This document shows, in pieces, positions 1-59,222 of a stretch of DNA of 64,000 bases. The stretch is from Heptranchias perlo (lineage: Eukaryota): positions 8,680,001 to 8,744,000 of the forward strand of contig NC_090349.1 in the NCBI RefSeq assembly GCF_035084215.1. Reading direction: 5' to 3'. The first letter of the stretch is position 1. Each line of letters opens with the position of its first letter. The notes beneath the pieces are model-generated. The model worked only from the letters and a program-made list of their open reading frames with translations. It was not told the origin of the DNA and did no database searches. The translations under genes and the position numbers were made by a program.

Positions 1-1250
1 AAATGGTTACTGGCCCACACAATCCAACATAAATGGTTACTGGCCCACACCATCCAACATAAATGGTTACTGGCCCACACCATCCAACGTAAATGGTTAC
101 TGGCCCACACCATCCAACGTAAATGGTTACTGGCCCACACCATCCAACGTAAATAGTTACTGGCCCACAGCATCCAACGTAAATGGCTACTGGCCCACAG
201 CATCCAACGTAAATGGCTACTGGCCCACAGCATCCAACGTAAATGGCTACTGGCCCACAGCATCCAACGTAAATGGCTACTGGCCCACAGCATCCAACGT
301 AAATGGCTACTGGCCCACAGCATCCAACGTAAATGGCTACTGGCCCACAGCATCCAACGTAAATGGCTACTGGCCCACAGCATCCAACGTAAATGGCTAC
401 TGGCCCACAGCATCCAACGTAAATGGCTACTGGCCCACAGCATCCAACGTAAATGGCTACTGGCCACAGCATCCAACGTAAATGGTTACTGACCCATAAC
501 ATCCAACATAAATGGTTACTGGCCCATAACATCCAACATAAATGGCTACTGGCCACAGCATCCAACGTAACTGGCAACTGGCCCACACCATCCAACATTT
601 TAAAAAATGTATTAGTTCATGGGATGTGGGCGCGCTGGCGAGGCCAGCATTTATTGCCCATCCCTAATTGCCCTTGAGAAGGTGGTGGTGAGCTGCCTTC
701 TTGAACCACTGCAGTCCAATATAAATGGCAACCGGCCCACACCATCCAACATAAATGGCAACCGGCCCACACCATCCAACATAAATAGCTACTAGTCCAC
801 ACCATCAACATAAATGGCAACCGGCCCACACCATCCAACATAAATGGCTACTGGCCCACAGCATCCAACATAAATGGTTACTAGTCCACACCATCCAACA
901 TAAATGGCTACTGGCCCACACCATCCAACATAAATGGCTACTGGCCCACACCATCCAACATAAATGGCTACTGGCCCACACCATCCAACATAAATGGCTA
1001 CTGGCCCACACCATCGAACATAAATGGTTACTGCCCCACAGCATCCAACAAAAATGGCTACTGGCCCACACCATCCAACATAAATGGCTACTGGTCCACA
1101 CCATCCAACATAAATGGCTACTGGTCCACACCATCCAACATAAATGGCTACTGGCCCACACCATCCAACATAAATGGCTACTGGTCCACACCATCCAACA
1201 TAAATGGCTACTGGTCCACACCATCCAACATAAATGGCTACTGGTCCACA
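1..1250. repeat. 30-bp minisatellite (AAATGGCTACTGGCCCACA[C/G]CATCCAAC[A/G]T), about 38 copies, running off the window start
   Basis: Tandem array directly visible; interrupted at about 599-714. Confidence 0.98.
599..714 (-). mobile_element. 3' end of a non-LTR retrotransposon inserted in the minisatellite
   Basis: Reverse complement of the terminus at 37195-37310 and 26880-26998 (…GGGCAATTAGGGATGGGCAATAAATGC…CCCACATCCCATGAA-polyA). Confidence 0.9.
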
Positions 1251-17197: not shown

Positions 17198-18044
17198 AAG
17201 AACAAAAGCAAAATACTGCGGATACTGGAAATCTGAAATAAAGGCAGAAAATACTGGGAATACTCAGAAGGTGAGGCAGCATCCGTGGACCGTGAAAAAG
17301 AGTTAACGTTTCAGGTCAACGATCTTTGATAAGAACTGGAAGAAGTTAGAGATTTAACAATTTATAAGCAAGTGTAGAGTCAGGGTAAAAAGGGGGGGCA
17401 GGGGAGGAAAGAACAAAAGGAAGGTCTCGAGGAACAGCATCTCACCTTTCGATTAGGCACTTTACAACCTTCCGGCCTCGAAAATGATTTCAACAACTTC
17501 AGATTATACTGATGATAACTCTGTTTCTTTCTCCACAGATGCTGCCTGACTTGCTGAGCTTCTCCAGTATTTTCTGTTTTTATTTCAGATAATAACCACT
17601 GCTCCCGTTTTCTCGGACAGCAGGCGCTGGTAATGGTTCTGCGGCTGCCATTTACACCTCCTCTGGACCCATCTTTTGTTTCTTTATTGTCCCATTACCA
17701 CCCACTTTTGCCTTGCACCATCATCCTTTTTGTCACTTAATCATTCCTGCCTTAAGTACGTATCTTAACCAAAAAAGGTTTAGTTGAAACTGAAGCTGTT
17801 CTAATAGACCTTTCCTTTTGTCCTTTTGTTCTTTCCTCCCTCCCCCCCACCCCACCCCACAACCTTTTTTCCCTAGCTCGGTTACTTCTTCCAGTTCTGA
17901 TGAAAGGTCGTCGACCTGAAACGGGGACATAACCTTAAAATCAGAACCAGGCCGTTCAGGAGAGAATTTAGGAAACACTTCTCTCCTATTTCTCTCTCCA
18001 CAGATGCTGCCTGACCGCTGAGTGTTTTCAGCATTTTCTGTTTT
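17198..18044 (+). mobile_element. Decayed Penelope-like element (second family): inverted pLTR, GIY-YIG C-terminal stub, direct pLTR
   Basis: 12-bp TSD TATTGCCAAAGA (17186-17197; 18045-18056). 17198-17427 is inverted relative to the right end. 17426-17512 encodes LEEQHLTFRLGTLQPSGLENDFNNFRLY*, typical of a PLE endonuclease C-terminus. Confidence 0.85.
17897..17923 (+). ncRNA. Disrupted hammerhead ribozyme core of the second PLE family
   Basis: CTGATGA-A-AGGTC-GTC-GACCT-GAAACG. The downstream stem III / stem I strand is interrupted by a CR1 fragment. A degenerate inverted copy lies at about 17300-17338. Confidence 0.7.
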
Positions 18045-18289
18045 TATTGCCAAAGATAGAGGTCTACCAAAATCATGAAAAAGTTCAGGAGGCACCAATT
18101 TACTGTAAAACAATATGTTTTGACACGAGAACATTATTTAAAGGAAATATAAGCTGATAAAAGATCTTTGATGCATTATAATAAATACACTGGTAGTTTT
18201 GCAGTTCTGTATCCTCCACTACATAGCTGGATAGTTTTGTAGGTACAGTTCGACCTTTTCCAAACAGTGGGAAGATTCAGAGAGGACTA

Positions 18290-18625
18290 GGAACATGGGA
18301 ACAGGAGGAGGCCATTCAGCCCCTTCAGCATGTTCCGCCATTCAATGACATCATGGCTGATCTGTATCCTAATTCCATCCACCCTACCTTGGCTCCATAT
18401 CCCTTAATGCTATTGGCTTGCAAAAATCTATCGATCTCAGATTTAAAGTTATTAATTGAGCTAGCATCTACTGCTTTTTGTGGGAGAGAGTTCCACATTT
18501 CTACTTTGCATGAACAAGTGTTTCCTAACTTCTCTCCTGAACGGCCTGGTTCTGATGTTAAGATTATGTCCCTGTGTCCTAGGCTCTCCCACCAGCGGAA
18601 AAAGTTTCTCTCTATACATTCTCTC
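18290..18625 (-). mobile_element. CR1 3' fragment
   Basis: REKLFPLVGEPRTQGHNLNIRTRPFR peptide plus tail. Confidence 0.88.
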
Positions 18626-19091
18626 TAATAATAGCAACTTTTCCAAGCTTTACATCATTGAGCTATTACAGCAGCTTAGAGAACTAAGCCTGATCTTGCT
18701 GGGAAAAAAGATTAAGGTAGAAACATGAAACAAGTTCAAATCATGATGCAGTGTCGAGAGCTAATGTGTTTCCAACGAAGGAGCGGGGTTTATAGCAAGG
18801 CTATCCAGGCGCTAAATGGAACAGTGGACCGCTTATTGCGTGTAGCATCCTCCTCATTCTTTGAAAGTTAATTTCTATATATACAAGTAGGAATCATTAT
18901 CCCACAGAGGATAGAAACTCAACAGGGATAATGCTCCTTTAAGTAAATTTATACCCTGGGCGTCCACTGATCGTCCCCCATTTTGCTGTATCACAGCCTC
19001 AATCTGACGCAGCCCTGCAGTTCTCTGTCTTGGCAAGTCAGTTGTAAACAATTTTACAACACCAAGTTATAGTCCAGCAATTTTATTTTAA

Positions 19092-19132
19092 ATTCACAAG
19101 CTTTCGGAGATTTTCTCCTTCCTCAGGTAAAT
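19092..19132 (-). ncRNA. Minimal type I hammerhead ribozyme in the inverted pLTR
   Basis: Exact reverse complement of 20143-20183. Confidence 0.85.
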
Positions 19133-20142
19133 GTTTCAAGATCTCCTTGAAGCCTACGCATTTATACATATTGAATAATACATGGTGTTTACAGACTGCC
19201 TCTGCAACTGCCCGTTGCCAAGGCAATCACCGTGTTCAGACAGAGAGGTGTCATCTGCAGAACCCCCGAATACACATTCAACAAAAAAACAAACAGGGAA
19301 AAAAAACAGAGAAAAAAAAGAGAAAAAAAACAGAGAGAGAGGCAGAAACATCTGGAAGGCAGAGAGAGCCAGCAAATGACCCATTATATTAAAAACAGAT
19401 AACATTTGTTCGCTGGTGGGGTAACGTGTAGCGTCACATGAACCTCTGCAAGACATGCCAGATCATCGACACAGATACCACCATCACACGAGATGACACC
19501 ACCCACCAGGTGCATGGTTCATACTCCTGTGACTCGGCCAACGTTGTCTACCTCATACGTTGCAGGAAAGGATGCCCCAGAGCATGGTACATTGGCGAGA
19601 CCATGCAGACGCTGCGACAACGGATGAACGGACACCGCGCAACAATCGCCAAACAGGAGGGTTCCCTCCCAGTCGGGGAACACTTCAGCAGTCATGGACA
19701 TTCATCCACCGACCTTCGGGTAAGCGTACTCCAAGGCGGCCTTCGAGACACACGACAACGCAAAATCGTCGAGCAGAAATTGATAGCCAAGTTCCGCACC
19801 CATGAGGACGGCCTCAACCGGGACCTTGGGTTCATGTCACGCTACACGTTACCCCACCAGCGAACAAATGTTATCTGTTTTTAATATAATGGGTCATTTG
19901 CTGGCTCTCTCTGCCTTCCAGATGTTTCTGCCTCTCTCTCTGTTTTTTTTTTCTCTTTTTTTTCTCTGTTTTTTTTCCCTGTTTGTTTTTTTGTTGAATG
20001 TGTATTCGGGGGTTCTGCAGATGACACCTCTCTGTCTGAACACGGTGATTGCCTTGGCAACGGGCAGTTGCAGAGGCAGTCTGTAAACACCATGTATTAT
20101 TCAATATGTATAAATGCGTAGGCTTCAAGGAGATCTTGAAAC

Positions 20143-20183
20143 ATTTACCTGAGGAAGGAGAAAATCTCCGAAAGCTTGTGAAT
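20143..20183 (+). ncRNA. Minimal type I hammerhead ribozyme in the upstream pLTR
   Basis: Stem I ATTTAC/GTGAAT; core CTGAGGA(+A); stem II GGAGA-AAA-TCTCC; GAAA; palindromic AAGCTT in place of stem III. Confidence 0.87.
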
Positions 20184-20269
20184 TTAAAATAAAATTGCTG
20201 GACTATAACTTGGTGTTGTAAAATTGTTTACAATTGTCAACCCCAGTCCATCACCGGCATCTCCACATC

Positions 20270-22978
20270 ATGACTACCATCGACACCACAAACTGCCGGC
20301 TCACAGTGGAAAGGATATCCAAGAAGATCGCGCATTTAGACACAGACATCAAGTTTTTACAGAGCTGCAAGAAAGCAGACAAGATCCTGAAAGGACTCCA
20401 GATCACGAACCCACTCAAGTCCACATACAACTCGGATTACGCTGAGAGACTCTGCCGCCGTACCTCTCGCACACTCCGCAACCATCTCATACACCAACTC
20501 TACAGCAGACGCCACAACCTCGAAACCAAGATAGAGTCCATACTCTCAACCTGTACTCAGGACACAGCAGACCAGCTACGTTATACCGCCAAACAGACGA
20601 GGCAACGGAACTACGCTGCCTACATGAAAACCAAGAGCAGGAAGCTTGAGAAACTCGGCATCACCACCAGCAACGACCAAGCTTCCCCTGGTACCACGGT
20701 TGCAACCACAGGGAAGTCTATTGTCAATCTATCCGACCACACCCTTCAACCAGACGAAATCGAAGTTCTCAGCCGAGGGCTCAATTTCTGCCCCACTACC
20801 AAAATGGACCCCACTAGTCTCGCGGCGGACACAGAGGAATTCATCAGGAGAATGAGGCTCCGGGAATTCTACCACAAACCCCAAGATTTCAGCAGCGAAC
20901 CCAATGAGACAATCGACGATCCGGAACAGCAGACAGAGGGATCCGCGGTACAGCAACCGAAGAGGAAAGAGTCAAACTGGACTCCTCCGGAGGGTCGCTG
21001 CCCTCAGCTGGACATGTATGCTCAAGCTGTCAGGAAATGCGTCAATGCCAGATTCATCAGCCGCACTCAGAAGACAGTCCAGAATGTCACCCGAGCACAA
21101 CGCAACGCCATCAACGCTCTCAAGACCAACCGCAACATCGTCATCAAACCAGCGGACAAAGGAGGAGCCATAGTCATACAGAACAGAACAGACTATTGCA
21201 AAGAAGCATACCGACAACTGGACAACCAGGAACACTACAGACGGTTACCCGCAGATCCGACCAAAGAACACACCCACCAGCTCAACAAACTGATCAAGAC
21301 CTTCGATCCAGACCTTCAAAGCATCCTACGCATTCTCATCCCACGTAATCCCCGCGTGGGAGACTTCTACTGCCTCCCAAAGATACACAAAGCCAACACA
21401 CCCGGACGTCCCATCGTATCAGGCAACGGAACCCTGTGTGAGAACCTCTCTGGATACATCGAGGGCATCCTGAAACCCATCGTACAGGGAACCCCCAGCT
21501 TCTGTCGCGACACTACAGACTTCCTACAAAAACTCAGTACCCACGGACCAGTTGAACCAGGAACACTTCTCACCACGATGGACGTCTCGGCACTATACAC
21601 CAGTATCCCCCACGATGACGGCATCGCTGCGACAGCATCAATACTCAACACCAACAACAGCCAATCTCCGGAAGCCATCCTACAACTCATCCGCTTCATC
21701 CTGGATCACAATGTCTTCACCTTCGATAACCAGTTCTTTACCCAAACACACGGAACAGCCATGGGGACCAAATTCGCACCCCAATACGCCAACATTTTCA
21801 TGCACAAGTTCGAGCAGGACTTCTTCACTGCACAAGACCTCCAACCAACACTATACACCAGATACATCGACGACATTTTCTTTCTATGGACCCACGGCAA
21901 GGAATCACTAAAGAGACTACACGATAACATCAACAAGTTCCATCCCACCATCAAGCTCACCATGGACTACTCCTCAGAATCAGTTTCTTTCTTGGACACA
22001 CGAATCTCCATCAAAGACGGGCACCTCAGCACCTCACTCTACCGCAAGCCCACGGACAACCTCACGATGCTCCACTTTTCCAGCTTCCACCCTAACCACG
22101 TCAAAGAGGCCATCCCCTATGGACAGGCCCTGCGAATACACAGGGTCTGCTCAGACGAGGAGGAACGCGATGGACACCTACAGACGCTGAAAGACGCCCT
22201 AGTAAGAACGGGATATGACGCTCGACTCATCGATCGACAGTTCCGACGGGCCACAGCAAAAAATCGCATAGACCTCCTCAGGAGACTAACACGGGACGCA
22301 ACCAACAGAGTACCCTTTGTCGTCCAGTACTTCCCCGGAGCGGAGAAACTACGCCATGTTCTCCGCAGCCTTCAACATGTCATCAATGAGGACAAACACC
22401 TCGCTATGGCCATCCCCACACCTCCACTACTCGCCTTTAAACAGCCACCCAACCTCAAACAGACCATCGTTCGCAGCAAACTACCCAGCTTTCAAGAGAA
22501 CAGCGTCCACGACGCCACACAACCCTGCCACGGTAACCTCTGCAAGACATGCCAGATCATCGACACAGATACCACCATCACACGAGATGACACCACCCAC
22601 CAGGTGCATGGTTCATACTCCTGTGACTCGGCCAACGTTGTCTACCTCATACGTTGCAGGAAAGGATGCCCCAGAGCATGGTACATTGGCGAGACCATGC
22701 AGACGCTGCGACAACGGATGAACGGACACCGCGCAACAATCGCCAAACAGGAGGGTTCCCTCCCAGTCGGGGAACACTTCAGCAGTCATGGACATTCATC
22801 CACCGACCTTCGGGTAAGCGTACTCCAAGGCGGCCTTCGAGACACACGACAACGCAAAATCGTCGAGCAGAAATTGATAGCCAAGTTCCGCACCCATGAG
22901 GACGGCCTCAACCGGGACCTTGGGTTCATGTCACGCTACACGTTACCCCACCAGCGAACAAATGTTATCTGTTTTTAA
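20270..22978 (+). CDS. PLE polyprotein, 902 aa: reverse transcriptase, Cys-rich linker, GIY-YIG endonuclease
   Basis: Uninterrupted ORF from the first ATG at 20270. Motifs: IKPADKGGA, LPKIHK, GRPIVS, MDVSALYTSIP, GTAMGTKFAP, YIDD, FLD, CxxxxCxxC linker, VVYLIRC...WYIGET, HF. Confidence 0.96.
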   Translation: MTTIDTTNCRLTVERISKKIAHLDTDIKFLQSCKKADKILKGLQITNPLKSTYNSDYAERLCRRTSRTLRNHLIHQLYSRRHNLETKIESILSTCTQDTADQLRYTAKQTRQRNYAAYMKTKSRKLEKLGITTSNDQASPGTTVATTGKSIVNLSDHTLQPDEIEVLSRGLNFCPTTKMDPTSLAADTEEFIRRMRLREFYHKPQDFSSEPNETIDDPEQQTEGSAVQQPKRKESNWTPPEGRCPQLDMYAQAVRKCVNARFISRTQKTVQNVTRAQRNAINALKTNRNIVIKPADKGGAIVIQNRTDYCKEAYRQLDNQEHYRRLPADPTKEHTHQLNKLIKTFDPDLQSILRILIPRNPRVGDFYCLPKIHKANTPGRPIVSGNGTLCENLSGYIEGILKPIVQGTPSFCRDTTDFLQKLSTHGPVEPGTLLTTMDVSALYTSIPHDDGIAATASILNTNNSQSPEAILQLIRFILDHNVFTFDNQFFTQTHGTAMGTKFAPQYANIFMHKFEQDFFTAQDLQPTLYTRYIDDIFFLWTHGKESLKRLHDNINKFHPTIKLTMDYSSESVSFLDTRISIKDGHLSTSLYRKPTDNLTMLHFSSFHPNHVKEAIPYGQALRIHRVCSDEEERDGHLQTLKDALVRTGYDARLIDRQFRRATAKNRIDLLRRLTRDATNRVPFVVQYFPGAEKLRHVLRSLQHVINEDKHLAMAIPTPPLLAFKQPPNLKQTIVRSKLPSFQENSVHDATQPCHGNLCKTCQIIDTDTTITRDDTTHQVHGSYSCDSANVVYLIRCRKGCPRAWYIGETMQTLRQRMNGHRATIAKQEGSLPVGEHFSSHGHSSTDLRVSVLQGGLRDTRQRKIVEQKLIAKFRTHEDGLNRDLGFMSRYTLPHQRTNVICF

Positions 22979-23235
22979 TATAATGGGTCATTTGCTGGCT
23001 CTCTCTGCCTTCCAGATGTTTCTGCCTCTCTCTCTGTTTTTTTTTCTCTTTTTTTTCTCTGTTTTTTTTCCCTGTTTGTTTTTTTGTTGAATGTGTATTC
23101 GGGGGTTCTGCAGATGACACCTCTCTGTCTGAACACGGTGATTGCCTTGGCAACGGGCAGTTGCAGAGGCAGTCTGTAAACACCATGTATTATTCAATAT
23201 GTATAAATGCGTAGGCTTCAAGGAGATCTTGAAAC

Positions 23236-23276
23236 ATTTACCTGAGGAAGGAGAAAATCTCCGAAAGCTTGTGAAT
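23236..23276 (+). ncRNA. Minimal type I hammerhead ribozyme in the downstream pLTR
   Basis: Identical to 20143-20183. Confidence 0.87.
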
Positions 23277-24371
23277 TTAAAATAAAATTGCTGGACTATA
23301 ACTTGGTGTTGTAAAATTGTTTACAATTGTCAACCCCAGTCCATCACCGGCATCTCCACATCTTGGCAAGTCAGCAGTGAGATTTAAGGCAGTAGCAAGA
23401 GTGCTGAAACATTATAGTAATAACAGTGGTACAAAAATCTGCTAAGTAAAACATGGCTCCAAGCTACTGCAGATCAGACAGAGAGAAGAGAGGTTGGTCT
23501 GGCCAGGAAAGAGCTTTGTTAGGTGGAGGTTGAACTTCTTTCCAACACTTTACCTACAACAAATAATCTACCACTATCCATTGTTCATTTAACTTCCACG
23601 CACGAATGGAAAGTACACCAAATTTGTACTGAGCTTCTGCCAAGCCAATTTGGAGCACTATATTGCCAGAGGGTTGTTGTTAAGACGATACTTAGAACAA
23701 GCACATAAAGAGCTCCAGGTCACGGTCCTGATGGTAAACCTTCACCCATTGTCCCAGAAAATGGCGCTGTGTGTCGAATGGATTGTAACCTTTCCTTGCG
23801 TTTCCTGCCCTGCCAAAAAATGACGTTATCACTGTGCAGGGTCAAAGCAACTGTATTGAGTTTTCAACCCAGCTGGTCCAGCAACTCAGTCGCACTGAAA
23901 ACTCTCCACTGAGGCGATAATGCCCTTGAGTGTATCAATTAACATGTAGCTTGCAAAAATGTATTTATTGTTAAAAGCCAAAATTTTGTTATTCATTGAC
24001 ACAAGAGCCTGTTGTGCTTAGTGCAAAATAATAAAGGATCCCCCTTTCTTAAGGCCTACAAGAAGTTACCTAAATTTATAGATTTACACTTTGATATATG
24101 GCTAATAGCCCATTTCTATACTGCAAGAGTAATTTCCTGTCCTGCAGCTGTTGCACCAAATTTATGCTGCAGGGTGGATTTAGTAACAAGTATGCATGTA
24201 CAAGTCAGTCCGCGTGCAAATGCTCATAGATGCAACTTCATCAAAACTAGCTGCAAAACTTCCCCGATGTTGGGGAAGGATGCTATGGGTCAGTAATATT
24301 ACGAAGCACATTGGAGGCTTCCACGGATTCAGCTTACCTACAGCCAAAATAAAATGCCAGACCCAATGGCT

Positions 24372-25621
24372 TATGACAAGGTCCTGAACATTTACCTGAC
24401 GAAGGAGGAAGCCTCCGAAAGCTTGTGAATTTAAAATAAAATTGCTGGACTATAACTTGGTGTTGTAAAATTGTTTACAAAGGTCCCACATGGCAGACTG
24501 GTCAAAAAAGTACAAGTCCATGGGATCCAAGGGAAAGTGGCAAGTTGGCTCCAAAATTGGCTCAGTGGCAGGAAAGGGTAATAGTCGGCGGGTGTTTTTG
24601 TGACTGGAAGGATGTTTCCAGTGGGATTCCGCAGGGCTCAGTACTAGGTCCCTTGCTTTTTGTGATATACATTAATGATTTGGACTTAAATGTAGGGGGC
24701 ATAATTAAGAAGTTTGCAGATGATACAAAAATTAGCCATGTGGTTGATAGTGAGGAGGAAAGCTGTAGACTGCAGGGAGATATCAATGAACTGGTCAGGT
24801 GGGCAGAAAAGTGGCAAATGGAATTCAAACAAGAGAAATGTGAGGTAATGCATTTGGGGAGGGCAAACAAGGCAAGGGAATACACAATAAATGGAAGGAT
24901 ACTGAGAGGTGTAGAGGAAGTGAGAGACCTTGGAGAGCATGTCCACCGATCCCTGAAGGCAGCAGGACAGGTAGATAAAATGGTTAAGAAGGCATATGGA
25001 ACACTTTCCTTTATTAGCACGGGCAGGTTATGCTGGAACTGTATAAAACACTAGTTAGGCCACAGCTTGAGTACTGCGTACAATTCTGGTCACCACATTA
25101 CAGGAAGGATGTAATTGCACTAGAGAGGGTACAGAGGAGATTTACGAGGAAGATGCCAGGACTGGAGAATTTTAGCTATGAGGAAAGATTGGATAGGCTG
25201 GTATTGTTTTCTTTGGAACAGAGGAGGCTGAAGGGTGATTTCATTGAGGTGTACAAAATTATGAGTGGCCTGGATAGAATGGATAGGAAGGGCCTATTTC
25301 CCTTAGCAGAGAGGTCAATAACCAGGGGGCATAGATTTAAAATGATTGGTAGAAGGATTAGAGGGGAGTTAAGGAAAACATTTTTCACCCAGAGGGTGGT
25401 GGGGGTCTGGAACTCACTGCCTGAAAGGATGGTAGAGGCAGAAACCTTCAACTCATTTAAAAAGTACCTGGATGTGCACCTGAAGTGCCATAACCTACAT
25501 GGCTATGCACCAAGTGCTAGAAAGTGGGATTAGGCTGGGTGGTTCATTTTCGGCCAGTGCGGACATAATGGGCCGAATGGCCTCCTTCTGTGCCATAAAT
25601 TTTCTATGATTCTATGATTCA
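24372..25621 (+). mobile_element. CR1 LINE, RT C-terminus to 3' end, interrupted near its 5' end by the solo hammerhead insertion
   Basis: GIPQGSVLGPLLFVIYINDL, KFADDTK and LVRPQLEYCVQFWSP peptides; (TTCTATGA)n tail. Confidence 0.95.
24385..24479 (+). mobile_element. 95-bp solo PLE terminus carrying a complete hammerhead (24390-24430)
   Basis: TSD AAGGTCC (24378-24384; 24480-24486). CTGACGA-A-GGAGG-AAG-CCTCC-GAAAGCTT-GTGAAT; the downstream part is identical to the pLTR through TTTACAA. Confidence 0.9.
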
Positions 25622-26433
25622 ATAATGAATGGTGTTAGTGGCAGCAATTTACCATTGGCTGGGAACAAATCACCACTCCTGAGGAAGATTTTACTCCCTG
25701 TAATGATACTCACTGCACAATGATTACAATACCAAAGTGTGCTTGATTTTGAAGACAATACTGTATGGATAAATTGGATATTAAATTTCCCTGTAACTGG
25801 AAATACAAACCTAAATAAGTTCGCTTCATCTGCATTCCCCAAAGTGTACAATTGGAGGAATATGGACGATAACTGTGGCAAATGAATTATAGACTGACCA
25901 CAAATGACTGATGAACAGGATCTGGTTTGACAAACGAGCTACTGACAAGCCTCTTATTTCTGTATAGGTAATTGATTGTTGCAAAGATTTATGACGCAGA
26001 CTGCATTGAGTGGGAGGAGCAAGGTCATGAATTGCAGCACACTTTAAACTGAAAAGTTGGGTTTCTATTTGTATTTTGAAGGACTCTTGATTTGTGTTGA
26101 CTTCACTTAGAATCCCTCACTATCACACACAGAGAGAACAAAACTAGCTAATAAATAGAACTGCTGAATACACCAGAACCAGTCTGATCGAACAGAGCAG
26201 TCGTTGGATCCACAAAAGAACAGGATAGATCCATTTGTTTATGTGTACAGGATATGCAATTTCTTTATAACCTGATGAAAGCTGTCTTCCAATTAACTTC
26301 AAATTCCATGGTAGGGGACAGCATTTCTCTCACACAATTTCCCCATGACATATTCATGCATTTGTATCAGCATCATTGTACTAATTCTCTTTAGCAAGGT
26401 GCATTCCAATTATTTAAGAGCAGCCGTGCTTCT

Positions 26434-35500: not shown

Positions 35501-36646
35501 ACCAAACAGAGACTGTTAGCTAAGATAGAAGCCCATGGAATCGAAGGAAAAGTATGGACTTGGTTAGGAAGTTGGCTGAGCGAAAGGCGACAGAGAGTAG
35601 GGATAATGGGAAGGTACTCACATTGGCAGGATGTGACTAGTGGAGTCCCGCAGGGATCTGTCTTGAGGCCTCAATTATTCACAATATTTATTAACGACTT
35701 AGATGAAGGCATAGAAAGTCTCATATCTAAGTTTGCCGATGACACAAAGATTGGTGGCATTGTAAGCAGTGTGGATGAAAACATAAAATTACAAAGTGAT
35801 ATTGATAGATTAGGTGAATGGGCAAAACTGTGGCAAATGGAATTCAATGTAGACAAATGTGAGGTCATCCATTTTGGATCAAAAAAGGATAGAACAGGGT
35901 GCTTTCTAAATGGTAAAAAGTTAAAAACAGTGGATGTCCAAAGGGACTTAGGGGTTCAGGTACATAGATCATTGAAGTGTCATGAACAGGTGCAGAAAAT
36001 AATCAAGAAGGCTAATGGAATGCTGGCCTTTATATCTAGAGGACTGGAGTACAAGGGGGCAGAAGTTATGCTGCAGCTATACAAAACCCTGGTTAGACCG
36101 CACCTGGATTACTGTGAGCAGTTCTGGGCACCGCACCTTCAGAAGGACATAGTGGCCTTGGAGGGAGCGCAGTGTAGGTTTACTAGAATGATACCCGGAC
36201 TTCAAGGGTTAAGTTACGAGGAGAGATTACACAAATTGGGGTTGTATTCTCTGGAGTTTCGAAGGTTAAGGGGTGATCTGATTGAAGTTTATAAGATATT
36301 AAGGGGAACAGATAGGGTGGATAGAGAGAAACTATTTCCGCTGGTTGGGGATTTTAGGAGTAGGGGGCACAGTCTAAAAATTAGAGCCAGACCTTTCAGG
36401 AGCGAGATTAGAAAACATTTCTACACACAAAGGGTTGTAGAAGTTTGGAATTCTCTTCCGCAAATGGCAATTGATACTAGCTCAATTGCTAAATTTAAAT
36501 CTGAGATAGATAGCTTTTTGGCAACCAAAGGTATTAAGGGATATGGGCCTAAGGCAGGTATATGGAGCTAGATCACAGATCAGCCATGATCTTATCAAAT
36601 GGCGGAGCAGGCACGAGGGGCTGAATGGCCTACTCCTGTTCCTATG
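35501..36646 (+). mobile_element. Young 5'-truncated CR1 with an open ORF2 C-terminus (321 aa from 35606)
   Basis: GVPQGSVL, IFINDL, KFADDTKIG motifs, no stops; TSD TTCCCAG (35494-35500; 36647-36653). Confidence 0.95.
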
Positions 36647-49361: not shown

Positions 49362-51375
49362 CAAATTAGTTGGTAATTGGTTGGGAGGTTGCAGACAGAT
49401 GTGATTGGATGTGTCAAGCAGTGCTCTACAGGGATCTGTACTGGGGCCTCAGCTTTTCACCATATATATCAATGACTTAGATTAAGGAATGGAGAGTTGT
49501 GTATCCAAATTTGTAGATGACACTAAGTAAGGAGGCATAATAAGTTGCAGTAGATGGAAACAGTAAGTTAGAAAGGGACGTAAGACAGAATAAGTCAGTG
49601 GGCAAAACTATGGCAGATGGAGTTTAATGTGAGGTCATCCACTTCGGGTTTGAGAAAGACAAATCGGAATATTTTCTTAATGGCGAGAGATGAGGAGCTG
49701 TGGAGCAGCAAAGAGATATAGGTATCCATGTACACATATCACTAAAAGCTAGTGTACAGGTACAAAAATTAAACAAAAAGACTAATGGAATGTTGGCCTT
49801 TACCTCAAGGGGGTTGGAATACAAAAGTGAGGAAGTGATGCTTCAATTGTACAGCACCTTGGTAAGATCCCATTTGGAGACTGCATTCAATTTTGGACAC
49901 GAACCTCAGGTAGGATATATTGGCCTTCGAGGGGATTCACCAAAATAATACTGGGGCTTAAATGGTTAGAATCAAAGAAAGTTATGGCACAGGACGGGGT
50001 CATTCGGCCCATTATGTCCATGCCAGCTGAAAAAGAGCTATCCAGTTTAATCCCACTTTCCATCACTTGGTCCGTAGCCCTGTAGGTTACGGCATTTCAA
50101 GTGCACAAGTACTTTTTAAATGAGTTGAGGGTTTCTGCCTCTACCACCTTTTCAGGCAGTGAGTTTCAGATCCCTACCACCCTCTGGGTGAAAAAATTTC
50201 TCCTTAGCTCCCCTGTAATCCTTCGACCAAATACTTTGAATCTAAGCCCCCTGGTCACTGACCCCTCTCTGAAGGGAAATAGGTCCTCCCTATCCACTCT
50301 ATCTGGTCCAGTCCTAATTTTATATATCTCAACTAAATCTCCCCTCAGCTTCCTTTGTTCCAAAGAAAACAACCCCGAGTCCATCCAATCTTTTCTCATA
50401 ACTAAAATTCTCCAGCCCTGGCAACATCCTCGTAAATCTCCTCTGCACCCTCTCTAGTGCAATCACATCTTTCCTGTAATGTGATGACCAGAACTGTACG
50501 TAGTGCTCAAGCTGTGGCCTAACCAATGTTTTATACAGTTCTAGCATAACCTCCCTGCTCTTATATTCTATGCCTTGGCTAATAAAGCAAAGTATCCTGT
50601 CAGCCTTTTTAATCACCTTGTCGGCCTGTCCCACCTCCAGGGATCTGCGGACATGCCCACCAAGGTCCCTTTGTTCCTCTACATCTCTCAGTATCCTCCC
50701 ATTTATTGTATACACCCGTGCCTTATTTGCCCTCCCCAAATGCATTACCTCACACTTCTCTGGACTGAATTCCACTTGCTGCTTTTCTGCCCACCTGTCC
50801 AGTCCATTGATATCTTACTGCAGTCTACAGCTTTCCTCCTCACTATCAACTACAAGGCCAATTTTTGTATCATCTGCAAACTTCTTAATCATGGCCCCCA
50901 CATTCAAATCCAAATGTCCAAGTCCAAGTTGAATTATAATGACAGTTTGAATAAACTTGGTTTGTATTCCTTGAGTTTGGACGGTTGGGAGTGACCTAAT
51001 CGAGGTCTTTAAAATAATTAAGGGACTTGTTAAGGTACATACAGAGAAACTATTTCCTTTGGTGGTGGTGGGGGGAGAAAAATCCAGAACCAGAGGGCAT
51101 AATCTTAAAATTAGAGCTAGACTATTTAAGAGAAATAAGGAAGCACTTTTTCACACAAATGGTAGTGGAAATCTGGAACACTCTCTCCCAAAACGGCTGT
51201 GGATGTTGAGTCAATTGTAAATTTCAAGACTGAGATTGATAGATTTTGTTACATAAAGGTATCAAGGGATATGGAGCAAAGATGGGTAAGTGGAGTTGAG
51301 GTACAGATCAGGCATGATCTAATAGAATGGTGGAACAGGCTTGAGGGGCTGAATGGCCTACGCTTCCTATGTTCG
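49362..51375 (+). mobile_element. CR1 fragment with a nested opposite-strand CR1 (about 49968-50912)
   Basis: The host CR1 breaks at about 49967 and resumes at about 50928. The insert encodes LVRPQLEHYVQFWSSHYRKD on the minus strand. Confidence 0.9.
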
Positions 51376-58301: not shown

Positions 58302-59222
58302 ATTACATAGAATGTACAGCACATTCAGCCCAACAGGTCCATGCCATGTTTACATTCCACATGAACCTCCTCCCACCCTTTTTCATCTAACCCCATCAAC
58401 ATATCCTTCTATTCCATTCTCCCTCGTGTGTTTATCTAGCTTCCCTTAAATGTATCTATGCAAGTCGATGTGATCGCTTTGGAGAGGGTGCAGAGGAGAT
58501 TCACCAGGATGTTACCAGGGCTGGAGCGCTTCAGCTATGAAGAGAGACTGGGAAGATTGGGTTTGTTTTCCTTGGAGCAGAGGAGGCTGAGGGGGGACAT
58601 GATTGAGGTGTACAAAATTATGAGGGGCACAGATAGGATGGATACTAAGGAGCTTTTTCCCTTCGTTGAGGGTTCTATAACAAGGGGACATAGATTCAAG
58701 GTAAAAGGCGGGAGGTTTAGAGGGGATTTGAGAAAGAACTTTTTCACCCAGAGGGTGGTTGGAGTCTGGAACTCACTGTCTGAAAGGGTTGTGGAGGCAG
58801 GAACCCTCACAACATTCAAGAAGCATTTGGATGAGCACTTGAAATGCCATAGCATACAAGGCTACGGACCAAATGCTGGAATATGGGATTAGAGTAGACA
58901 GGGCTGATGGCCGGCGTGGACACGATGGGCCGAAGGGCCTCTATCCGTGCTGTATAACTCTATGACTCTAAGTCGCCTCAACTTCTCCTAGTGGTAACAA
59001 GTTCCACATTCTAATCACTCTCTGGATAAAGAAGTTTCTCCTGAATTCCCTATTGGATTTATTAGTGACTATCCTGTATTTATGGCCCCTAGTTCAGTCT
59101 CCCCCGCAAGTGGGAACATCTTCTCTACGTCTACCCTATCAAACCCTTTCATAATCTTAAAGACTTCGATCACCCCTCAGTCTTCTCTTTTCTAGTCCCA
59201 GTCTGTTCAATCTTTCCTGATA
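58302..59222 (-). mobile_element. CR1 3' fragment split by a nested plus-strand CR1
   Basis: Minus-strand CR1 tail at about 58302-58461, resuming at about 58976. Confidence 0.75.
58468..58969 (+). mobile_element. Young CR1 3' fragment with TSD
   Basis: Open frame DVIALERVQRRFTRMLPG...GYGPNAGIWD; TSD AAGTCG (58462-58467; 58970-58975). Confidence 0.92.

What the first reader, a model, noticed from the sequence alone, without database searches (positions are those of the whole stretch)
20143..23276. Pair of identical minimal hammerhead ribozymes bracketing the ORF, predicted to work as a dimer
Seen in sequence: both direct pLTRs contain ATTTAC-CTGAGGA-A-GGAGA(AAA)TCTCC-GAAAGCTT-GTGAAT, 3093 nt apart. 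Stem III is reduced to the palindrome AAGCTT and cannot fold as a monomer. Established knowledge: minimal type I hammerheads occur in PLE pLTRs and are proposed to cleave as dimers. Inference: cleavage after CUU (20177 and 23270) would release a ~3.1-kb unit-length, uncapped and possibly circularisable RNA with a 92-nt leader before the ATG. The extra A after CUGANGA and the CUU triplet depart from the canonical core.
Basis: partly seen in the sequence, partly recalled or inferred. Interest (0 to 1): 0.8.

Follow-up and report, generated by a model that had tools for sequence, protein, structure and literature searches.

The report
Penelope hammerheads bracket one transcription unit
The two motifs are the known minimal hammerhead RNA motifs of an intact Penelope-like jumping gene, and the ends of its many genomic copies suggest that the pair likely cuts and closes the RNA into a circle that rebuilds the promoter, while RNAs with a lone hammerhead stay uncut and yield tens of thousands of short stubs.

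Summary
Observation confirmed: identical minimal type I hammerheads lie at 20143-20183 and 23236-23276, in the pLTRs of an intact 902-aa Neptune-type Penelope-like element. The kind is known since 2014; the 'extra A' and CUU fit the published PLE consensus. This scan noted the same in other genomes. Catalytic positions vary in 0.6% of cells against 10-23% beside them, and stems covary modestly.

New in my searches: copy ends read out the mechanism. A TATA box, a predicted start 4 nt before stem I, and the unit's only AATAAA 11 nt after each cut would give an mRNA holding exactly two hammerheads. Terminal copies break at TATA+30 (40 of 71), not at the cut (109 against 64-100 next to it), so they were copied through an uncut ribozyme. 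Copies that crossed the ORF pass that start (2 of 48 stop; p=9e-10), so their template had no 5' end there. It was a re-ligated circle (my best guess, about 50%) or read-through RNA. Cleavage, transcript ends and circles were not observed; no usable RNA data.

The parts
19030..19041 (+). left target-site duplication (12 bp) of the whole insertion
   Evidence: same 12 letters at 23363-23374
19042..19444 (-). inverted, 5'-truncated pLTR arm without tail
   Evidence: aligns to 22923-23329 with one gap and two mismatches, one near each end
   Evidence: core 19098-19126
19441..20269 (+). 5' pLTR = 5'-truncated upstream copy of the unit
   Evidence: identical to 22535-23362 but for one gap in a T run
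20109..20114 (+). TATA box (predicted promoter); copy at 23202-23207
   Evidence: sequence; 18 of 444 cells vary in 74 long copies against 358 of 1554 in the following spacer
20139..20139 (+). predicted transcription start, TATA+30, 4 nt before stem I; copy at 23232
   Evidence: modal 5' end of short genomic copies; inferred, not mapped on RNA
20143..20183 (+). 5' minimal type I hammerhead; predicted cut between 20177 and 20178
20188..20193 (+). AATAAA hexamer 11 nt after the cut (promoter-proximal copy)
   Evidence: one of only two on the sense strand of the insertion; in 368 of 373 copies
20178..20269 (+). 92-nt leader holding the two inferred reverse-transcription start sites, +56 (20233) and +92 (20269)
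   Evidence: 3' ends of 373 copies cluster at +56 to +61 and +91 to +97; same two-site tail pattern as PMC11167929
20270..22978 (+). intact 902-aa ORF: DKG, RT (YIDD), CX4CX2C linker, GIY-YIG with two internal Cys
   Evidence: RVT_1 E 3e-10; GIY-YIG E 5e-4, 20.9 bits, below the 22.6 cut-off
22535..23362 (+). 3' pLTR ending in the 36-nt tail (23327-23362)
23236..23276 (+). 3' minimal type I hammerhead; predicted cut between 23270 and 23271
23281..23286 (+). AATAAA followed by a GU-rich run: predicted polyadenylation signal
   Evidence: function inferred
23363..23374 (+). right target-site duplication
24385..24480 (+). separate short insertion of another subfamily: starts about at the predicted transcription start, ends at +56, 7-bp TSD; fourth hammerhead at 24390-24430 with G-C for A-U in stem II and N7=C

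Best explanation
The two motifs are ordinary minimal hammerheads in the terminal repeats of an intact Neptune-type Penelope-like retrotransposon, and they likely act as a pair that cuts the element's RNA at both ends so that it would be ligated into a 3093-nt circle, the predicted template for promoter-bearing copies. Steps. (1) Shown: anatomy, conservation of the catalytic positions, and 3' ends of copies at +56 or +92 after the cut. (2) Inferred from copy ends and motifs: RNA polymerase II starts 30 nt after the TATA box, 4 nt before stem I of the first hammerhead, and polyadenylates after the AATAAA just past the second, so the mRNA holds exactly two hammerheads and has the +56/+92 priming sites only in its 5' leader. 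(3) Inferred: on an uncut RNA, above all one from a lone repeat that has no partner hammerhead, reverse transcription primes in the leader, reads through the ribozyme and runs off the 5' end, giving the 95-135-bp stubs that make up about half of the copies. (4) Inferred, least certain: when both hammerheads pair through AGCU and cut, ligation joins the 3' repeat to the leader; the reverse transcriptase then goes round past the start site and regenerates the TATA-bearing partial tandem seen in this window. Identity as a PLE minimal hammerhead about 0.95; step 2 about 0.8; step 4 about 0.5.
For: Fit to the published consensus. In 74 long copies picked without looking at the core, 5 of 814 catalytic cells vary against 13 of 74 at N7, about 10% in the stems and 23% in the upstream spacer. 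In 40 distinct motifs from 153 long copies, 93% of cells are paired and 12 cells change on both sides (0 of 500 shuffles; slid controls 24-48% paired). Of 100 copies picked by a downstream 26-mer, 46 break in the 20 nt before the core and 17 in the 52 nt after. The mode follows the TATA box, not the ribozyme or the priming site: 10 nt kept where TATA is 39-40 nt away, 16-17 where it is 46-47 (35 vs 66 copies, p=1.3e-5), with or without tail and in solo copies too. Genome-wide, 479 copies start at the A of an initiator-like TCATTTC against 15 four bases upstream. No pile-up at the cut: 109 at +1 against 87, 64 and 100. ORF-linked copies: 2 of 48 stop at the start window against 40 of 71 terminal copies (p=8.6e-10). 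Inversion junctions were all different in the ORF-linked copies that showed one. 5' and 3' repeats are identical in 6 of 6 true unit-spaced pairs, 5 of which differ from the window's copy (L112 is two separate insertions).
Against: No cleavage, RNA end or circle was observed; only contigs of runs guessed to be RNA were available. Nearest-neighbour energies do not favour the active dimer: -16.9 kcal/mol against -19.4 for two monomers and -23.7 for a dimer without stem III, and the register that pairs A14 with U17 is stronger (-4.3 vs -2.5) (tertiary contacts not modelled). Published PLE min-HHRs cleave weakly even as dimers, 8 of 9 Xenopus retrozyme dimers did not cleave, and in the anole element ribozyme mutants did not affect insertion in vitro and no RNA ends mapped to the cut. 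Arrays of two or more full units exist in this genome and could be the templates instead. Only 3 of 11 pairs show two-sided change, no more than shuffles (200 of 500), and related copies inflate that test. No cap-derived G (1 of 9 resolved junctions). The TATA-47 and TATA-41 groups do not fit TATA+30, and only 80 of 145 breaks lie within +28 to +32. The 1613 window-type starts include fold-back junctions with AAA microhomology.
Confidence: 0.5

Rival explanations
1. Long copies are made from uncut linear read-through RNA (transcripts of multi-unit arrays, or host pre-mRNA); the hammerheads cut late or rarely and only trim or down-regulate the RNA.
For: Arrays with 3081-3083-nt spacing exist. 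No fossil of cut RNA. In the anole element unprocessed RNA was the dominant substrate. PLEs retain introns, and Naiads thrive without canonical hammerheads.
Against: Multi-unit arrays are few (2 seen among the 58 ORF starts listed on contig C1), whereas 43 of 75 ORF-linked copies extend 5' past the TATA box and should yield daughters that stop at the start site; these are 2 of 48. It needs read-through of a conserved AATAAA and does not say how tandems first arise.
Confidence: 0.3
2. Retrovirus-like strand transfer: the RNA is terminally redundant from -38 to about +30, the short cDNA is a strong-stop product that hops to the 3' repeat, and no cleavage is needed.
For: Promoter, repeat and AATAAA are laid out like U3-R-U5; the short copies look like aborted strong-stop DNA; 6 of 75 ORF-linked copies stop at +52 to +54, close to the first priming site.
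Against: A second arrival at the RNA 5' end should stop as often as the first, but does so in 2 of 48 against 40 of 71; it does not explain conservation of catalytic positions.
Confidence: 0.1
3. The motif serves mainly as an RNA dimerisation signal: the palindrome tethers two template RNAs in one particle, one primed at +56 and one at +92, and cleavage is secondary.
For: All 75 back-to-back pairs have exactly one tailed arm. Arms are identical in 53 of 75 (random pairs 7.8%), but in 5 both arm types recur elsewhere, and about 5 more differ at subfamily-variable sites, so two templates were sometimes used. The 6-bp non-cutting duplex is the more stable register.
Against: A protein dimer explains two templates equally well; gene conversion could explain differing arms; a tether alone would not need CUGANGA and GAAA conserved.
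Confidence: 0.1

Closest known systems
Minimal hammerheads (min-HHR) in pLTRs of metazoan Penelope-like elements (Cervera & De la Pena 2014, PMC4209133)
   Same: Type I fold, no stem III, palindromic 15.2/16.2, extra nucleotide after A9, G10.1-C11.1, one motif per pLTR about 3 kb apart, many solo and opposite-strand copies; dimer cleavage and circles already proposed.
   Different: 84,863 descriptor matches here (control 269) against about 4,000 and 9,000 reported for coelacanth and Xenopus (other descriptor). Stem I is 6 bp. Solo copies are explained here by run-off at a TATA-directed start.
Neptune clade of endonuclease-bearing PLEs (Craig et al. 2021, PMC8557442)
   Same: Single ORF, DKG, RT, CX2-5CX2C linker, C-terminal GIY-YIG with two internal Cys; partial tandem plus inverted 5' arm plus tail on one end.
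   Different: Clade not tested with a tree; Nematis shares the linker motif.
Poseidon element PAc of the green anole (Frangieh et al. 2024, PMC11167929)
   Same: Two internal reverse-transcription start sites that define the tail; unprocessed RNA as template; no RNA ends at the cut.
   Different: In PAc the ribozyme overlaps the start codon and priming is inside the ORF; here both lie in a 92-nt non-coding leader that ends at the ATG.
Non-LTR retrozymes (Cervera & De la Pena 2020, PMC7229834; Li et al. bioRxiv 10.64898/2026.07.22.740005)
   Same: Hammerhead dimers, RtcB-type ligation to circles shown in vitro for axolotl and mussel repeats; PLE origin. Locus L410 is such a 404-bp array made from this element.
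   Different: Retrozymes are short and non-coding, and those of the 2020 paper carry canonical cores; this is the autonomous 3.1-kb coding unit.
Drosophila virilis Penelope promoter (Schostak et al. 2008, PMC2377424)
   Same: Transcription starts inside the upstream pLTR; regeneration of the pLTR is called unexplained there.
   Different: That promoter is TATA-less and internal, with an intron; here a TATA box lies upstream of the start and is lost from run-off copies.

Membership tests
PLE minimal type I hammerhead | core CUGANGA ... GAAA ... NUH | tested here: met
   5 of 814 catalytic cells vary in 74 copies picked without the core
PLE minimal type I hammerhead | extra nucleotide after A9 and G10.1-C11.1 | tested here: met
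   A at 20156 in 74 of 74; listed as conserved traits in PMC4209133
PLE minimal type I hammerhead | stems I and II, supported by covariation | tested here: met
   pair probabilities 0.76-1.0; 93% paired, 12 two-sided cells, but only 3 of 11 pairs with a two-sided change
PLE minimal type I hammerhead | stem III reduced to a palindrome | tested here: met
   AGCU; 15.2 invariant, 16.2 changed in 2 of 74; a second family in this genome has ACGU
PLE minimal type I hammerhead | located in pLTRs of a PLE | tested here: met
PLE minimal type I hammerhead | self-cleavage as a dimer | not testable with these tools
   energy model does not favour the active dimer; no genomic pile-up at the cut; needs an assay
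Rfam hammerhead models | match at gathering score | tested here: not met
   no hammerhead family among hits up to E 10 in 18000-26000
Neptune-clade PLE | single ORF with RT and C-terminal GIY-YIG bearing two internal Cys | tested here: met
   (GIY-YIG just below Pfam cut-off)
Neptune-clade PLE | CX2-5CX2C linker between RT and endonuclease | tested here: met
   residues 753-761; shared with Nematis
Neptune-clade PLE | partial tandem, inverted arm, tail on one end, TSD | tested here: met
Neptune-clade PLE | placement in the RT tree | not tested
   no clade-labelled reference proteins fetched
Non-LTR retrozyme | short non-coding tandem unit | tested here: not met
   3093-nt unit with a 902-aa ORF; met only by the derivative at L410

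The most novel reading that the evidence does not exclude
The genome holds a fossil record of how Penelope-like elements rebuild their promoter. The transcription unit is cut to hold exactly two hammerheads, and the priming sites lie only in the 5' leader. Dimer-dependent cleavage and ligation is therefore the gate that turns the mRNA into a circular template for full, promoter-bearing copies, while single-hammerhead RNAs stay uncut and give strong-stop-like stubs from a particle that can carry two RNAs. The 3.1-kb circle would be an autonomous, protein-coding ribozyme-made circular RNA of a vertebrate-type retroelement.
Probability: 0.4. Interest if true: 0.72.

Novelty: new member of a known kind. 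Interest (0 to 1): 0.42.

Why it matters
The motif itself is a known kind. But the papers read here call the role of PLE hammerheads unclear (PMC8557442), lack in vivo evidence of cleavage (PMC4209133) and see no obvious mechanism for pLTR regeneration (PMC2377424). A young family with tens of thousands of copies lets these questions be tested from DNA alone. It gives exact predictions: start at 20139, cuts at 20177 and 23270, poly(A) after 23286, priming at +56 and +92, and a 3093-nt circle. It also rules out one model, the cut linear unit RNA as the template for long copies.

Tried and rejected
Rfam scan: no hammerhead hit. Sequencing runs: no RNA holder listed on record; four same-sample runs only guessed to be RNA. 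Their contigs cover the leader and all 30 ORF bins but cannot show ends, strand or level, so they are not used as evidence. Pile-up of 5' ends at the cut, suggested by three copies at +3: rejected by genome-wide counts (after allowing for the letters excluded by each pattern, at most about 1.5-fold by my rough estimate). An apparent pile-up at -30 was an artefact of using one reference for several subfamilies, and the -99 cluster an artefact of the reference panel. Stalling at the ribozyme structure, or a fixed length from the priming site: disfavoured because the mode shifts with the TATA box and not with the tail. A 3' splice site at the hotspot: no AG precedes it in either subfamily (sequence). 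Cap-derived G: not seen. L410 as proof of rolling-circle copying: not accepted, because two neighbouring units share a substitution, which points to DNA-level expansion as well. Lunse et al. (title in a reference list: PLE hammerheads cleave as dimers) could not be read; I saw only its citation and a review's summary. Searches for prior description of the start-site pile-up, the poly(A) layout or two-template arms found none; subscription papers and the supplements of PMC11167929 and of the preprint were not seen and may bear on this. The third subfamily group was analysed only from loci already in hand. The last group (sequence 3' of stem I) was not summed; its columns are also well conserved, so conservation is not unique to the core.
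Full report
1. The observation. The motif stands letter for letter at 20143-20183 and 23236-23276, 3093 nt apart. The core pattern occurs four times in the window and never in 100 shuffles. The insertion runs from a 12-bp target duplication at 19030-19041 to its twin at 23363-23374. It consists of an inverted arm without tail, a direct partial copy (19441-20269), the ORF, and a 3' repeat that ends in a 36-nt tail. The ORF has 902 codons and no internal stop, with DKG, YIDD, a CX4CX2C linker and a GIY-YIG motif holding two cysteines. By the features in PMC8557442 (parts 1-2 of 10 and passages) this is a Neptune-type Penelope-like element; I built no tree. The host is an unnamed 3.25-Gb genome, which I did not identify.

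2. It is a known kind. PMC4209133 (main text parts 1-2 of 4, supplement parts 1-2 of 3) describes minimal hammerheads in both pLTRs, about 3 kb apart, with solo and opposite-strand copies, weak dimer cleavage and a proposed circle. Rfam has no model that finds the motif. Earlier notes of this scan report the same arrangement in other genomes.

3. Is it under selection as a ribozyme? A relaxed descriptor finds 84,863 matches in the genome against 269 for the reversed pattern; a downstream 26-mer finds 65,442; the leader-ORF junction finds 848. In 74 long copies chosen by flanking anchors only, 5 of 814 cells vary at the eleven catalytic positions, 13 of 74 at N7, 88 of 888 in stem I, 78 of 740 in stem II and 358 of 1554 in the spacer after the TATA box. 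The A-rich stretch after stem I is well conserved too. Among 40 distinct motifs from 153 long copies, 93% of stem cells pair and 12 change on both sides (0 of 500 shuffles), but only 3 of 11 pairs carry such a change, which shuffles match, and the rows are related. Stems I and II fold with probabilities 0.76-1.0. The active double hammerhead scores -16.9 kcal/mol, worse than two monomers (-19.4) and a dimer without stem III (-23.7), and the six-pair palindrome that traps U17 is stronger than the active four-pair one. A slow or protein-assisted ribozyme is expected, as for the anole element (PMC11167929, parts 1-2 of 4).

4. What copy ends show. The 3' ends of 373 copies cluster at +56 to +61 and +91 to +97 after the cut, the two-site tail pattern that PMC11167929 traced to internal priming. 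This insertion ends at +92, so the cut linear unit (20178-23270) cannot have been its template. For 5' ends I took the first 100 genomic matches of the downstream 26-mer: 46 break at -48 to -29, 17 between +23 and -28, and 22 run beyond -200. The mode follows the TATA box. In the window's subfamily (TATA 39-40 nt before C3) 10 nt are kept; in subfamily B (46-47 nt) 16-17 are kept, which is the A of an initiator-like TCATTTC (35 vs 66 copies, p=1.3e-5). It is the same with and without tail and in solo copies with clean target duplications. Over all subfamilies 80 of 145 short breaks lie at TATA+28 to +32; the groups assigned TATA 41 and 47 do not fit. Genome-wide, 479 B copies start at that A and 15 four bases upstream; 1613 start at the window-type site, a count that includes fold-back junctions with microhomology. 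At the cut there is no excess: 109 at +1 against 87, 64 and 100 at +2, 0 and -1. I infer that short copies are run-off products at a polymerase II start, copied through an uncut ribozyme. No cap-derived G supports this (1 of 9). The fourth motif in the window is such a stub.

5. Long copies differ. I examined 98 ORF starts from the places listed; 75 continue at least 170 nt into the ORF (short ones and the L410 array left out). Of 48 that reach -29, 2 stop in the start window, against 40 of 71 terminal copies (86 after dropping 9 segmental duplicates and 5 ORF-linked ones; p=8.6e-10). Forty-three of the 75 pass the TATA box. Their template had no 5' end at the start site. The only AATAAA hexamers on the sense strand of the insertion lie 11 nt after each cut, before a GU-rich run, and 368 of 373 copies keep it. 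With cleavage 10-30 nt downstream (established knowledge, recalled), an mRNA from 20139 would end before +56, hold exactly two complete hammerheads, and offer priming sites only in its 5' leader. To reach the ORF the enzyme then needs a circle, read-through RNA or a strand transfer. A transfer should stop at the start site on the second pass as well, which is not seen. Read-through from multi-unit arrays is possible: such arrays exist but are few. A circle made by paired cleavage and ligation fits all counts, and RtcB ligation of hammerhead-cut retrozyme RNA is shown in PMC7229834 (passages). I give the circle about 0.5, read-through 0.3, transfer 0.1 and a pure tethering role 0.1.

6. Two templates. 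All 75 back-to-back short pairs have exactly one tailed arm. Arms are identical in 53 (random pairs 7.8%); in 5 both arm types recur elsewhere, 13 have one private type and 4 two private types. Two RNA molecules were probably used in some events, whether held by a protein dimer or by the palindrome.

7. Prior art and limits. [quoted passage not shown] PMC3846280 (passages) notes a TATA and initiator in a rotifer pLTR. The review PMC6765202 (passages and part of section 11) repeats the dimer and circle model. The preprint 10.64898/2026.07.22.740005 (parts 1-3 of 5) found cleavage in 1 of 9 dimers. PMC6155905 was seen in passages. I found no description of the start-site pile-up, the poly(A) layout or two-template arms in searches; subscription papers, Lunse et al., and unseen supplements may hold it. 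No RNA evidence was obtained. The sampled copies come mostly from the start of contig C1.

8. Verdict. Interest 0.42 rests on the copy-end evidence, which makes the open question of what PLE hammerheads do directly testable.

Noticed in passing
L077-L084, L144 (G000:C1:927,781-1,017,683): A second, unrelated minimal hammerhead family (N7=U, stem III ACGU, GUC triplet, 7-bp stem I) repeated eight times at 8-22-kb spacing, as if inside a large tandem repeat.
   Followed up: no
L410:857-4683 (G000:C2:21.27 Mb): A retrozyme-like array of ten hammerheads at 404-bp period, made from an internally deleted copy of this element, inside one 11-bp target duplication and ending at +92; seven units identical, two share one substitution.
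   Followed up: partly
L119 (G000:C1:4,460,972-4,467,183); G000:C1:188,733,832-188,740,032: Arrays with two or more full units at 3081-3083-nt spacing; candidates for read-through templates.
   Followed up: partly
L098 (G000:C1:2,628,675-2,628,780): A fold-back insertion whose two arms join exactly in the stem III palindrome.
   Followed up: no
75 loci listed: Every back-to-back short pair has one arm with the tail and one without; some arms come from different subfamilies.
   Followed up: partly
ORF-linked copies: Six of 75 begin at +52 to +54, near the first priming site, as expected after exactly one turn on a circle or from a block at that site.
   Followed up: no
window 25030-25533, 35606-36571, 50329-50745, 58458-58892: ORFs that look like C-terminal fragments of a LINE-type reverse transcriptase (resemblance recalled, not searched).
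   Followed up: no
window 805-1224 (minus strand ORF): A 30-bp-period tandem repeat that reads as a 139-aa repetitive ORF.
   Followed up: no
window 17231-17590, 17307-17923, 17918-18578: Several older inverted repeat pairs just left of the insertion, probably decayed short interspersed elements.
   Followed up: no
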